Assembly: GCF_009914755.1 (NCBI RefSeq)
Contig: NC_060933.1
Length of the DNA: 64,000 bases
Reading direction: 5' to 3' (one strand)
From: the human T2T-CHM13v2.0 reference genome, Homo sapiens
In this document: in pieces, positions 28,083 through 33,704 of the stretch
Layout of the letters: each line of letters opens with the position of its first letter
Position numbering within the stretch: position 1 is the stretch's first letter
Position numbers and translations under genes: made by a program
The notes under the pieces: model-generated
Databases searched by the model: none
Told to the model about the DNA's origin: nothing
What the model saw: only the letters and a program-made list of their open reading frames with translations

Positions 28083-31000
28083 GGAAGCTCTTTAGTTTAA
28101 TTAGATTCCACTTGTGAATTTTGTTTTTCTTGCAATTACTTTTGGGGACTTAGCCAAAAATCATTTGCCAAGGCCAATGTTGAGAAGGAGATTTCCTAGG
28201 TTTGCTTATAGCATTTTATAGCTTGAGGTCTTCTATTTAAGTCTTTAATACATGATGGGATAATTTTTGTAGATGCTAAAATGTTAGGGTCCAGTTTCAT
28301 TCTTGTGTATATGGCTAGCCAGTTATCCCAGCACCATTTATTGAATACAGTGTCCTTTTCTCCATTACTTGTTTTTGTTGACTTCATAAAATATCAGATG
28401 GTTGTAGTTGTGTGGCATTATTTCTGAGTTTTCTATTCTGTTCCATTGGCTTATATATCTGTTTTTGTACCAGTAGCATGCTGTTTTGGTTACCGTAGCT
28501 GTATAATATAACTTGAAGTTGGGTAGTTTGATGCCTCAGGTTTGGTCTTTTTGCTTAAAATTGCTTTTAGTATTTGGGCCCTCTTTTGGTTCTATATGAA
28601 TTATAGAATTTTTTTCTGATTCTATGAAGAATGACATTGGTAGTTTGATAAAAATAGCATTGGCTCTGTAAATTACTCTGGGCAGCATTGCCATCTTAAT
28701 GATATTGATTCTTCCAATCCATGAGCATGGAATGTTTTTCCATTTATTTGTGTCATCTCCGATTTCTTTCAGCAGTATTTTACAATTCTCCTTGTAGAGA
28801 TTTTTCATCCCCTTAGTTAGATATATTCCTAGATATTTCATAATCTTTCTGGCTATTGTAAGTGTGGTTGTGGTTTTGATTTGACTCTCAGCCTGGACAT
28901 TATTGGTGTACAGAAATGCTGCTGGTTTTTCTACATTGATTTTGAATCCTGAAACTTTACTAGAGTCATTTATCACTTCTAGGAGCCTTTGGTAGAGTCT
29001 TTAGGGTTTTCCAGGTATAGAATCATATTATTGGTGAAGATAGATAATTTGACTTCTTTTTCTATTTAGAGGCGTTTTATTTCCTTCTCTTGCCTGATTG
29101 CCCTGGCTAGGACTTCTAGCACTATGTTGAATAGGGATAGTGACAATGGGCATCGTTGTCTTGTTCTAGTTTCTAGGGGGAATGCTTCTGGCTTTTGCCT
29201 GTTCAGTATGATGTTAGCTGTGGGTTTGTCATAGATGGCTCTTATTATTTTGAGATGTGTTCTTTTGATGTTGCATCTGTTGAGGGTTTTTATCATGAAG
29301 AAATGTTGGATTTTATGGAAAGCTTTTTTTGTACCTATTGAGATGATCATATGGTCTCTGTTTTTAATTCTGTTTATGTGGTGGATCACATACATTGATT
29401 TGTGTAGGTTGAACCAGCCTTGCATCCCAGGAATAAAGCCTACTTGATCATGGTGAATTTGGATTTTTGATATGCTGCTAGATTCATTTTGCTAGTATTT
29501 TGTTGAAGATTTTTGTATCTATGTTAACATGGGTATTGGCCTGAAGTTTTCTTTTTTCTTTGCGTCTATTCCAGACTTTGGTTTCAGGCTGATGCTGGCT
29601 TCATAAAATAAGTTAGAGAGGCGCTCCTCCTCCTCAATTTTTGGGAACAGTTTCTGTAGGATTGGACCAGCTCTTCTTTTTATGTATGGTAGAATTCAGC
29701 TGTGAATCCATCTGTTCCAGGGCTTTTTTTGGTTGGTAGATTTTTTATTACTGATTCAGTTTCAGAGCTTGATATTGGTCTGTTTAGGATTTCAATCTCT
29801 TCCTGATTTAATCTTGAGAGATTGTATGTTTCCAGGAATTTATCCATTTCCTCTAAATTTCTTAATTTTTGTACTTAGAGTTATTCATATTATTCTCCAA
29901 GGATCTTTTGTATTTCTGAGGAATTAGTTATAATGTTATCTTTGTCATTTCTGATTGTCCTTATTTTAATCTTCTCTTTTTTTCTCTTTTAATCTAGCTA
30001 GTTGTGTATTATTCTGGCTATTTTTTTTTCAAAAAACAAGCTCTTGTTTTCATTGATCTTTTGTATGGATTTGTACATCTCAATTTTCTTCAGCTCTTCT
30101 CTAATTTTAGTTGTTTTTCTTCTACTAGCTTTGTTCTTTTTTTTCTAGTTTCTTTAGGTGCAAATTAGATTGTTTAGATCTTTCTAATTTCTTGATGGTG
30201 TTTAGTGTTACAAACTTTCCTCTTGACATTACTTTAGCTGCATTCTAGAGAGTTTGGTAAATTATGTCACTATTTTTTTAGTTTCAAATAATTTTTTGAT
30301 TTCTGCCTTAATTTTCATGTTCGCTCAAGGAGTTATTCAGGAATAAGTTGTTTAATTTCCATGTATTTGTTTAGTTTGGGGAGATCTTGATATTGATTTC
30401 AATTTTTATTGCACTTTGGCCCAAGAGTGTGCTTGGTATTATTTCAATTAGAAAATGATTTTATTGAGACTTGCTTCATTGTTCAGCATGTAGTCAATCT
30501 TAGAATATGTTTTGTGTGCAGATAAGAAGAATGTATTTTTTATGGAGTTTAGTAGAGTGTTCTATAGATTACTATTAGGTCCAATTGATCAAGTGCTAAG
30601 TTTAAGTCCAGAGTTTCCTTGTTAGTTTTCTGCCTCAGTGATCTGTTTAATGCTGTCAGTAGGGGGTTGAAGTCTCCCATTATTATTGTGTGGTTCTCTA
30701 AGTGTTTTCACAGGTCCAGAATGACTCGTTTTATGAATCTGGGTATTCCATTATTGGGCATGTATATATTGAGGATACCTAAGTCTTCTTGTTGGATTAT
30801 CACTTTATCATTATACAGTGCCTTTCTTTGTCCGTAATTTTAATTGATTTATAGTCTGCTTTATCTGATATAAGAATAGCAACTCCTGCTCTTTTTTTTC
30901 CCATTTTCATGGTAGATCTTTCTCCATCCCTTTACTTTGAGCCTGTGGGTGTCAGTGTCAATATGTCTGAGATGGGTCTCTTGAAGATAGCAGATTGTCG

Positions 31001-32330
31001 GGTCTTGGCTTTTTCTCCAGCTTGCTCCTCTATTTATTTTAAGGAACTGTTTAGGCCATTTCCATTGATAATTAGTATTGATATGTCAAATTTGATCTTG
31101 TCATTGTGTTGTTAGATGGTTGTTATGTAGACTTAATCATGTAGCTGCTTTATAGTGCCTGTGGGCTATGTTCTTAAGTGTCTTTTTGTGGTAGTAGGTG
31201 TTGTTGTTTTGTTTTCTGGCTTAGCTTTCCCTTAAAGACCTCTTGTATGGTTGGTCTACCTGAAAAAATTTCCCTCAATGTTTGCTTGTCTGAGAAAGAT
31301 TTTATTTCTCTTTCACTTACAAAGCTTAGTCTGCAGGATATGAAATTCTTAATTGGAATTCCTTTTCTTTAAGGATGCTGAAAATAGGATTCCAATCATT
31401 TTTGTCTTTTAAGATTTTTGCTGGGACTCCCTTTGTACATAACCTGATCCTTCTCTCTAACTGCCCTTAAGAAGTTTTTTCCATTGACCTTGGGGAATCT
31501 ATGTGGTCTGTGGATGGACCTCTTGTATAGTATGTAGCCAGGAATACCTGTATTTCTTGAATTTGAATGTCAACATCTCTAGCAAAATTAGTAAAATTTT
31601 CATGGCCTACATCCTCAAATATATTTTTCAGGTTGCTTATTCTCTCTCCTTCTCTCAGGAATGCCAATGAATCAGATTTCGTCTCTTTACAAAATCCCAT
31701 ATTTATCAAAAATTCTGTTTATTTTTTAATTTTTGTCCAGCTGATTTGATTTAAAGAACTGATCTTTGAGCTCTGAGTTTCTTTCCTCATCTTGGTCTAT
31801 TCTACTATTGACACTACTGATTGTATTATAAAAGTCTTTTAGTTTTGTAGCTCTGGAAGTTCAGTTTGGTTCTTTCTTGAAATGGCAATTTTTCTTTCCA
31901 CTCTTGGATTATTTTACTGGATTCCTTAGACTCCTCGGATGGGGTTTCAAGTTTCTCCTGAATCTTGATGAGCTTCTTTGCCATCCAGATCCTGAATTCT
32001 ATGTATGTTATTTCAGTCATTTCAGACTGGCTGAGAACAACTGCTGTAAGCTAGTGGACTTGTTTGGAGGTAGAGGGACACTGGCGTTTTAGGAATTCTT
32101 GCACTAATTCTTTCTCTTCTAGGAGGATTGGTGTCCCTTAAACTGAGGCATACATTGATTACAGTCAGTAGGCTTCATTTCTTGATGTTTTCAGAAGTCC
32201 AGGGCTTTGTACAGGATCATTTGAGGCTGAATTATTGTCCTTGGTTTCATAGAGAGGTATATTAGCAAAATATTTTTGGTATTATAGTTTGGACTATGAT
32301 CCAGTAGATGGCACTTAATAGTAACGGGTG

Positions 32331-32453
32331 AGATGAGATCCAGTGCGTTCAGCGTGGTATGGCCGTAGACAAACCTACAGCACCTAGTATTCCCAGGTGG
32401 TCTCCCATCCAAGTACTAACCAGGCCCAACCCTACTTAACTTCGGAGATCAGA
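32331..32453 (-). pseudogene. 5S rRNA retro-pseudogene, circularly permuted (nt 38-120 followed by nt 1-40)
   Basis: 32371-32453 = reverse complement of 5S nt 38-120 (8 mismatches, ungapped); 32331-32370 = reverse complement of nt 1-40 (5 mismatches); compared by hand to recalled human 5S; then GG+A10; TSD-like AACGGGTG/AATGGGTG. Confidence 0.93.
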
Positions 32454-33704
32454 GGAAAAAAAAAATGGGTGGCAGGTAGGGTTTTATTCAGCCATGTGGC
32501 TCCTTTGTATCTCCTCATGTTTGCAGCCATGTTCTGTGGTGCAGGGGGTAGAGAGCTGATACCCTCACCAGGTCAGCTCCTGGGTCTTGGGGAGCACCCT
32601 CCAATCACTGGCACTGCACCCACATTTCTTCTGTTAGGTGTCCAGTCTGCAGGGATCCCTTGGCAGAGACCACAGGAAGGAAATAGGCAGGCCCTACAGA
32701 GGGAGACATGCCCTGCTCCCATTCCAGCCCACGAACCTGCACGTCTCACTCCTCTCAGTCCTCTGAGAGTATGGACTCCTCTCCTGCTTGAGTGCCAGTC
32801 ATAGATATTGGCTCAACATTCCCAAACTATGTGCCACAGACCTGGGACGCTGGGATTGGCTCACAGATCCATCCTCTGGACTGTTGCAGATGAGTTCACG
32901 GTATGCTGGGGAATTCAAAGTGCTCCCAGACCACTGGGAAAGTAATCAGGTAGAGCAAATCACCAAGGCTGGGCAGCAGAGGCTGTGCTATGCTCATACT
33001 CCTGCAGGGTGGCCAGATAGTGACTCTGAAGAGGGCTGGAGGGCAAGAGGCCAAGAGGGCCTAGAGAACAGATGTGTCCCAGTCCCATGAGGAAGTTGGC
33101 TCTGCTCTCTCCTGGCCTAGCAGTCAGCTGGGCTAGAGCTTCTTGGAGGAAGATGGAGAGCCTTGGGGAATGGGAGCCTATGGCCACACTCCACCAGAGC
33201 TGCACCATTCACAGAGGCCAATGGTTCCACACTGGCTGAAACCATGTCTCTGCTTACTCTCTGGGAAAATCTCTCTGTCAGCTCAAACATCGATGGACCA
33301 CATGGGGCCTCCTGTAGCCATAATCCCAGAGGTCTGTGGAGAGGATAGGCAGTACCACAGTCCCTTCACTCACTCATTCCTCAGGGGCATTTCAAGGCTA
33401 GGAACTAGATTCAGTGTTTGGGTACCCCATGCAGGGTTCCCAGATTCCTCTCTCCTTAAACTCAGTGTCTGCATCTCCATCCATTTTCAGTGTTTTCTCT
33501 CTGAAGATCTGTCCAAGTTATTAATATACTGGCTTACTCAAAACCTTGGTCTCTCTCAGTTGGAGCAGCACCTCCTGGCTGTGTCTAGTTGACGATCTTG
33601 TTACCCTCCTTTCCCAGAAAAGATTAAATTACACTCATGGTAAGGATTATTTGAAAAGGGAGAAGGAGATATGGGTTTAGCATGATAATAAAAGGGGACT
33701 TCAG

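What the first reader, a model, noticed from the sequence alone, without database searches (positions are those of the whole stretch)
32323..32471. Circularly permuted, one-revolution 5S rRNA retrocopy, antisense to its poly(A): possible fossil of a circular 5S RNA template
Seen: on the minus strand the insert reads 5S nt 38-120, then with no spacer nt 1-40 (junction ...CTGTAGGTTT|GTCTACGGCC at 32371/32370). It covers the whole molecule once plus about 3 nt of overlap (AGA at both ends). Both parts are ungapped (13 mismatches in 123 nt vs recalled human 5S, several at CpG). On the plus strand it is followed by GG+A10 and bracketed by AACGGGTG (32323-30) / AATGGGTG (32464-71), so the 5S is antisense to the poly(A). 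Established: genomic 5S units are separated by kb-scale spacers, so a mature 3'-to-5' end join is not a copy of the rDNA array. Ordinary L1-made 5S pseudogenes and U6-type chimeras are colinear and in sense with the tail; L1 twin priming yields antisense cDNA next to the upstream TSD. Inference: the top-strand nick primed internally at nt 40, RT ran to nt 1, crossed onto nt 120, and stopped on returning to its own start. That implies a covalently circular 5S RNA or an intramolecular end-to-end jump across helix I, where the two ends are paired. Stopping after exactly one turn favours a single template molecule over two independent insertions.
Basis: partly seen in the sequence, partly recalled or inferred. 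Interest (0 to 1): 0.9.

Follow-up and report, generated by a model that had tools for sequence, protein, structure and literature searches.

The report
Permuted one-turn 5S rRNA retrocopies
Two places in the human genome hold a dead copy of 5S ribosomal RNA that starts and ends in the middle of the molecule with its two ends joined, likely because the LINE-1 reverse transcriptase hopped across the paired ends of one RNA, or less likely because the RNA was a closed ring.

Summary
Observation confirmed. The minus strand reads 5S nt 35/38-120 then nt 1-40, ungapped against the genome's own 5S genes (13 mismatches in 123). The 8-bp target duplication is real: 23 of 29 paralogous L1 sites carry it once, with no A-run. 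A second, independent copy lies on contig C11: nt 35-119 then 1-40/41, 14-15-bp duplication, no A-run. Eight genome-wide junction patterns found only these two. Priming at nt 40 is ordinary, the commonest tailless 5S class, and antisense 5S/L1 chimeras are published, so only the end crossing and the stop one turn later are special. Ordinary copies start in that zone 3-9% of the time, so one template molecule is favoured, not proven. Best reading (0.6): L1 ORF2p jumped from nt 1 to the freed 3' end of the same linear 5S; covalent circle 0.2; second molecule 0.15. The sequence cannot separate jump from circle. Read-through of open, structured RNAs was already suggested in a line of Dong 2016; I found no 5S case in print. 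No sign of function.

The parts
32323..32330 (+). Target-site duplication, left copy (8 bp, one CpG-type difference from the right copy)
32331..32370 (-). 5S rRNA nt 1-40 (nt 1 at 32370, nt 40 at 32331); first stretch copied; not covered by the RefSeq pseudogene row
   Evidence: 35 of 40 identical, ungapped
32370..32371 (-). Seamless join of 5S nt 120 to nt 1, no base lost or added
   Evidence: only period 120 fits
32371..32456 (-). 5S rRNA nt 35-120 (nt 38 at 32453; nt 35-37 match 2 of 3); annotated as RNA5SP286
   Evidence: 77 of 86 identical
32457..32463 (+). A-run of 7 (8 with 32456), antisense to the 5S; not in paralogous empty sites
32464..32471 (+). Target-site duplication, right copy
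31174..32600 (-). Part of the older, decayed L1 element that received the insertion in its 5' untranslated region (ORF1 fragments at 31174-31718); full extent not mapped
   Evidence: Pfam PF02994 and PF17490 above cut-off in 3 of 5 fragments scanned; paralogous copies

Best explanation
This is a dead, circularly permuted 5S rRNA retrocopy, likely made when the L1 reverse transcriptase (ORF2p) primed in loop C of one intact linear 5S RNA, copied to nt 1 and then likely jumped onto the 3' end of the same molecule, copying on until just past its own start. Shown: single insertion with target duplication, order 35/38-120 then 1-40, seamless join, 3-6 nt terminal overlap, and a second independent copy. 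Inferred steps: (1) the nicked target primes at nt 40, as in hundreds of ordinary tailless copies; (2) copying nt 9-1 strips helix I and frees nt 110-120 beside the active site; (3) an untemplated A would pair with the terminal U and give a seamless jump; (4) finishing the turn would need the first RNA:DNA hybrid to be cut or peeled, probably by RNase H2, leaving a short stub so that the enzyme runs off at about nt 35; (5) at this locus the other nicked strand likely primed on a poly(A) for 7-8 bases (twin priming) before the two ends were joined.
For: Two unrelated loci (no flank similarity, different join, 120 versus 119) share priming point and stop point. Loop-C 3' ends are the main class: 205 matches, about 80 of the 100 listed ending at nt 36-46 by eye, against 137 ending near nt 90. 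5' starts at nt 19-42 are uncommon among ordinary copies: 21 against about 390-400 dispersed copies, i.e. 3-9% after correcting for sensitivity, 0.0006-0.008 for two in a row; no longer-than-one-turn dimer was found by the junction patterns. Helix I pairs nt 1-9 with 110-118 and leaves 119-121 free. ORF2p shows untemplated addition and template jumping in vitro, and RNase H2 recruitment is part of the authors' model (PMC10830420, passages). With recalled helix and single-strand lengths, a 40-bp hybrid (11 nm) is within reach of the 80-nt remainder (48 nm) while a 90-bp hybrid (25 nm) is not within reach of 30 nt (18 nm), and no nt-90-primed permuted copy was found. The overlap is real on C11 (at least nt 35-39; the two copies of one CpG decayed in opposite directions), which rules out a single pre-nicked molecule.
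Against: Only two copies. The in vitro jumps described are onto a new incoming molecule, not the same one. Nt 31-34 is itself a minor start zone (8 of 21 truncated copies; two more 3'-complete copies start there without a detected join), so a stop there does not need a collision with the first hybrid. The lack of nt-90-primed copies is not significant (about 0.3 expected by class shares alone). A covalent circle gives the same DNA. The RNase H2 step and the source of the A-run are inference only; the nick site here matches the L1 consensus at 3 of 6 positions.
Confidence: 0.6

Rival explanations
1. The template was a covalently closed 5S RNA ring (nt 119 or 120 ligated to nt 1) present in the germ line; ORF2p primed in loop C, read through the join and stopped after one turn when the ring was cut or strained.
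For: Both joins are seamless, with no base lost or added; one turn plus 3-7 nt in both copies; retrocopies of circular RNAs exist for mRNA circles and mostly lack a tail (PMC4897178, whole main text).
Against: No paper on circular eukaryotic 5S turned up. Recalled: mature 5S has 5'-triphosphate and 3'-OH ends, which RtcB does not join, and closing helix I with a 1-2 nt linker needs fraying (pairing). No multi-turn and no nt-90-primed copy was found. A jump needs no new RNA species.
Confidence: 0.2
2. ORF2p jumped from nt 1 of one 5S molecule to the 3' end of a second molecule or loop-C-cut 3' fragment (or read a ligated dimer), and stopped in loop C for reasons unrelated to its start.
For: Intermolecular jumps are what was shown in vitro; 5S is abundant; 8 ordinary copies start at nt 31-34 and two 3'-complete ones start in that zone.
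Against: Most ordinary copies reach the 5' end, so most such jumps should give 1-120 plus 1-40 dimers; none of the 2 joins found is of that kind. Chance of two stops in the zone is 0.0006-0.008.
Confidence: 0.15
3. The permutation arose at DNA level: a full-length cDNA closed on itself and was reopened, or two separate insertions or a later deletion in a dimer produced the order.
For: Not excluded without orthologues; tandem duplication between target duplications does happen to 5S copies (L098).
Against: One target duplication brackets both halves directly; both copies open at the RNA-structure-defined priming site used by ordinary copies; halves are similarly diverged; the same outcome twice.
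Confidence: 0.05

Closest known systems
Tailless retropseudogenes (Noll et al. 2015, PMC5322556; passages and first part of Results read)
   Same: L1-made, target duplications, 3' end in a 5S loop, internal priming, no templated tail; the C11 copy has TT then T at the break and a purine-rich run, close to their target consensus
   Different: Theirs stop at the RNA's 5' end; these cross it and copy the rest of the molecule. 'permut', 'circular' and 'jump' do not occur in the main text; supplements not seen
Antisense 5S/LINE-1 chimeric insertions by twin priming (bioRxiv 10.1101/2025.02.02.635956; passages and one section read)
   Same: 5S antisense to the A-tail, cut at loop C, target duplication
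   Different: Here the sense partner is only A7-8, and the 5S continues past nt 1 into nt 120; 'permut' and 'circular' do not occur in the main text; tables not seen
circRNA-derived pseudogenes (Dong et al. 2016, PMC4897178; whole main text read)
   Same: Non-colinear join preserved in a retrocopy, little or no tail; the paper notes that reverse transcription might pass through open-ended structured RNAs with close ends
   Different: Back-spliced exons of mRNA genes with known RNA circles; no splice sites and no known circle here. Their Figure S1D was not seen and may show a related case
Permuted mitochondrial 5S rRNAs of brown algae (Valach et al. 2014, PMC4267664; passages read)
   Same: 5S ends joined across helix I and new ends elsewhere
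   Different: Functional, expressed genes opened at the three-way junction; these are decayed nuclear copies opened in loop C with terminal overlap. A jump of this kind is a possible route to such genes (inference)

Membership tests
L1-mediated (tailless) 5S retropseudogene | Flanking target-site duplication of about 7-20 bp | tested here: met
   8 bp here, single in 23 of 29 paralogues; 14-15 bp perfect repeat on C11 (empty site not checked)
L1-mediated (tailless) 5S retropseudogene | 3' end at an internal single-stranded hotspot, no sense poly(A) | tested here: met
   nt 40/41 in both; main class
L1-mediated (tailless) 5S retropseudogene | Colinear copy beginning at or near nt 1 | tested here: not met
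   Order is 35-120 then 1-40
L1-mediated (tailless) 5S retropseudogene | L1 endonuclease-like nick site | tested here: inconclusive
   3 of 6 consensus positions here, 4 of 6 on C11 (consensus)
Antisense 5S/L1 twin-priming chimera | 5S antisense to an A-tail inside one duplication | tested here: met
   A7-8 absent from empty sites; not so on C11
Antisense 5S/L1 twin-priming chimera | Recognisable L1 3' end between 5S and tail | tested here: not met
   Only the A-run lies between 5S and duplication
circRNA-derived pseudogene | Non-colinear end-to-start join in the genomic copy | tested here: met
circRNA-derived pseudogene | A covalent circular RNA with the same join exists | not testable with these tools
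   No RNA data; no paper found
Functional permuted 5S gene | Conserved and expressed | tested here: inconclusive
   Mismatches are scattered and CpG-rich as for neutral decay; expression and orthologues not testable

The most novel reading that the evidence does not exclude
Germ-line cells of primate ancestors held covalently circular 5S rRNA, and these two loci are its genomic fossils, the first trace of end-ligated nuclear 5S RNA in a mammal and of L1 copying a small RNA ring exactly once.
Probability: 0.2. Interest if true: 0.8.

Novelty: new variant of a known kind. Interest (0 to 1): 0.52.

Why it matters
The two copies record, in the germ line, a reverse transcriptase crossing the ends of a structured RNA, an activity of ORF2p so far shown in the test tube. 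If one molecule was read, the overlap shows that the RNA was intact across the priming site, direct support for internal priming, which Noll et al. accepted only by default. They warn that a non-colinear pseudogene need not come from a circular RNA, and they show a one-step route to circularly permuted RNA genes. If the template was a ring, there is an undescribed circular 5S species. The test is cheap: ORF2p on linear versus ligated 5S. The loci themselves look like neutral fossils.

Tried and rejected
Junction patterns gave only the two copies; other hits that were cut as loci (L012, L014, L017, L050-L060, L063-L067) were chance matches or ordinary colinear copies. The 19 three-mismatch rows could not be opened as loci and were judged from the printed match only. 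A 63-base DNA query across the join found only itself. The internal 7-base repeat of 5S (nt 31-37 and 41-47) does not explain the overlap, but it explains a common 10-nt deletion that made up most of the 36 rows dropped. A single pre-nicked molecule was rejected because the overlap is real. The idea that nt-40 priming is special was rejected, and the absence of nt-90-primed copies is not significant. The 5' ends of the 12 ordinary copies were not used as background because most were found through a 5' motif. A flank-level survey of many ordinary copies could not be done; background counts rest on printed pattern matches classed by eye. No orthologues, reads or RNA data were available. No supplement of any paper was seen; those of Noll 2015, the chimera preprint and Dong 2016 (Figure S1D) may bear on novelty. 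Paper searches without a relevant hit; one search gave only plant rDNA and organelle papers; the library lacks most subscription journals.

Full report
Observation. On the minus strand the insert aligns without gaps to a doubled 5S unit taken from the genome's own array: nt 35-120 at 32456-32371 and nt 1-40 at 32370-32331. Only a period of 120 keeps the register. Rfam scores only the 3' part, and the RefSeq row covers the same part, so the permutation is not in the annotation supplied. The insert sits in the 5' untranslated region of an older L1 on the minus strand (Pfam ORF1 domains in 3 of 5 fragments scanned). A search with the left flank listed 39 other copies, 29 of which were cut as loci; in 23 of the 29 the two flanks overlap by exactly 8 bases and none shows an A-run in the bases printed. 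The duplication and the A-run therefore came with the insertion. The A-run outside the duplication is 7-8 bases, and the overlap of the two 5S parts is 3 bases, or 6 with one mismatch.

A second copy. The best non-self match to the insert crossed the join. At G000:C11:21121472-21121596 the order is nt 35-119 then 1-40/41, inside a perfect 14-15-bp duplication and with no A-run. Its flanks do not match ours, its join is one base shorter, and it shares no derived base with ours, so it is a separate event. Its overlap is at least nt 35-39, and the CpG at 36-37 decayed in opposite directions in the two copies of it. Non-CpG divergence is 5 of 106 here and 2 of 105 on C11, with wide intervals: both are old, roughly of the age of primate L1 activity (inference). 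Eight patterns with different anchors, seven of them allowing 3 mismatches, found no third copy; more diverged copies can have been missed.

What is ordinary. Copies that end in loop C are the main class: 205 matches, about 80 of the 100 listed ending at nt 36-46 by eye, against 137 ending near nt 90. Noll et al. describe such tailless copies and infer internal priming by default (PMC5322556). A 2025 preprint reports 5S antisense to L1, cut at loop C, and proposes twin priming for such antisense partners. So the priming point and the antisense tail need no new mechanism, and the C11 copy shows that the tail is not part of the permutation.

What is not ordinary. About two in several hundred loop-C-primed copies go on past nt 1 into the 3' end and stop just beyond their start. 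To see whether that stop means anything I searched for copies holding nt 41-65 but lacking nt 17-23. Of 58 rows, 36 kept their 5' part (indels, mostly a 10-nt deletion) and were dropped, one was the C11 copy, and 21 were truncated (4 doubtful): 7 start at nt 19-29, 8 at 31-34, 6 at 40-42; our own locus was missed by this pattern. Against 513 matches to nt 41-65, of which about 110-125 are array units, that is 3-9% after a sensitivity correction, and 0.0006-0.008 for two independent stops. This tells both ways: loop C is a minor start zone on its own, yet two stops there, and no 1-120 plus 1-40 dimer, still favour one template molecule. Of four copies seen to start in loop C and reach nt 117, two are the permuted ones; the other two showed no join in any pattern and their flanks were not read.

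Mechanism. Helix I holds nt 1-9 against 110-118 with 119-121 free. Copying nt 9-1 would release the 3' strand next to the enzyme. ORF2p adds untemplated bases and jumps templates in vitro, lacks its own RNase H, and is modelled to recruit RNase H2 (PMC10830420, passages); top-strand nicking during first-strand synthesis supplies a second primer (PMC7617806, passages). An added A would pair with the terminal U and leave no scar, and the 119 versus 120 joins fit the recalled 3' heterogeneity of 5S. A rough geometry with recalled lengths says that a jump in cis is reachable after 40 bp but not after 90, and that neither a cis jump nor a ring can finish the turn as rigid hybrid (stall near nt 53; ring limit about 82 bp). 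The first hybrid must be cut or peeled; a cut a few bases in would leave a stub and a run-off near nt 35, which would explain the shared overlap. These steps are inferred. The same release would work on a ring, so the DNA cannot decide between jump (0.6) and covalent circle (0.2); I prefer the jump because it needs no unknown RNA and no ligation of ends that, as recalled, RtcB does not join. A second molecule (0.15) and DNA-level routes (0.05) remain.

Comparison and novelty. It works like a tailless 5S retropseudogene with one extra end-to-end crossing; it fails that family's colinearity. It has the join of a circRNA-derived pseudogene, but the circle is unshown; Dong et al. note in one sentence that reverse transcription might pass through open-ended structured RNAs with close ends (their Figure S1D not seen). 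Permuted 5S genes exist in brown algal mitochondria but are functional and differently opened. Searches for circular or permuted 5S retrocopies gave nothing relevant, within a library that lacks most subscription journals and without supplements. Verdict: real, recurrent, a new variant of a known kind, probably without function; interest 0.52, or 0.8 if the ring is shown.

Noticed in passing
L002:1469-1623 (G000:C11:21121457-21121611): Second permuted 5S retrocopy, nt 35-119 then 1-40/41, with a 14-15-bp duplication and no A-run
   Followed up: yes
G000:C1:227961640 and about 25 dispersed copies: A 10-nt deletion between the two 7-base repeats of 5S (nt 31-37, 41-47) recurs in many dispersed copies and in one array unit; either a variant source gene or reverse-transcriptase slippage across loop C
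   Followed up: no
8 loci, e.g. G000:C12:83044333, C5:33249855, C15:43361728: 5'-truncated 5S copies cluster at nt 31-34; cause unknown (loop-C cleavage or a protein block); one has a T-run just upstream like this locus
   Followed up: partly
L098:38-161 (G000:C2:164607457-164607580): Tailless 5S nt 1-40 copy duplicated head to tail at 54-base spacing, with three copies of its target duplication, as by recombination between the duplications
   Followed up: partly
G000:C1:142511706 and six near-identical loci on C1, C2, C4: A 5S copy preceded by six bases that match nt 112-117; could be a very short end crossing with a 2-base overlap or a chance match in the target duplication; the seven look like one event in duplicated segments
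   Followed up: no
G000:C23:8974010-8989626: Tandem array of diverged 5S-derived copies at 2.0 and 2.9 kb spacing
   Followed up: no
window 32413-32914: A RefSeq enhancer row overlaps the 3'-part copy and the L1 5' region; no link to the insert tested
   Followed up: no
window 29500-33600, minus strand: Long decayed L1 with 5' region, ORF1 and endonuclease-like fragments; largely outside the masked stretches listed
   Followed up: partly
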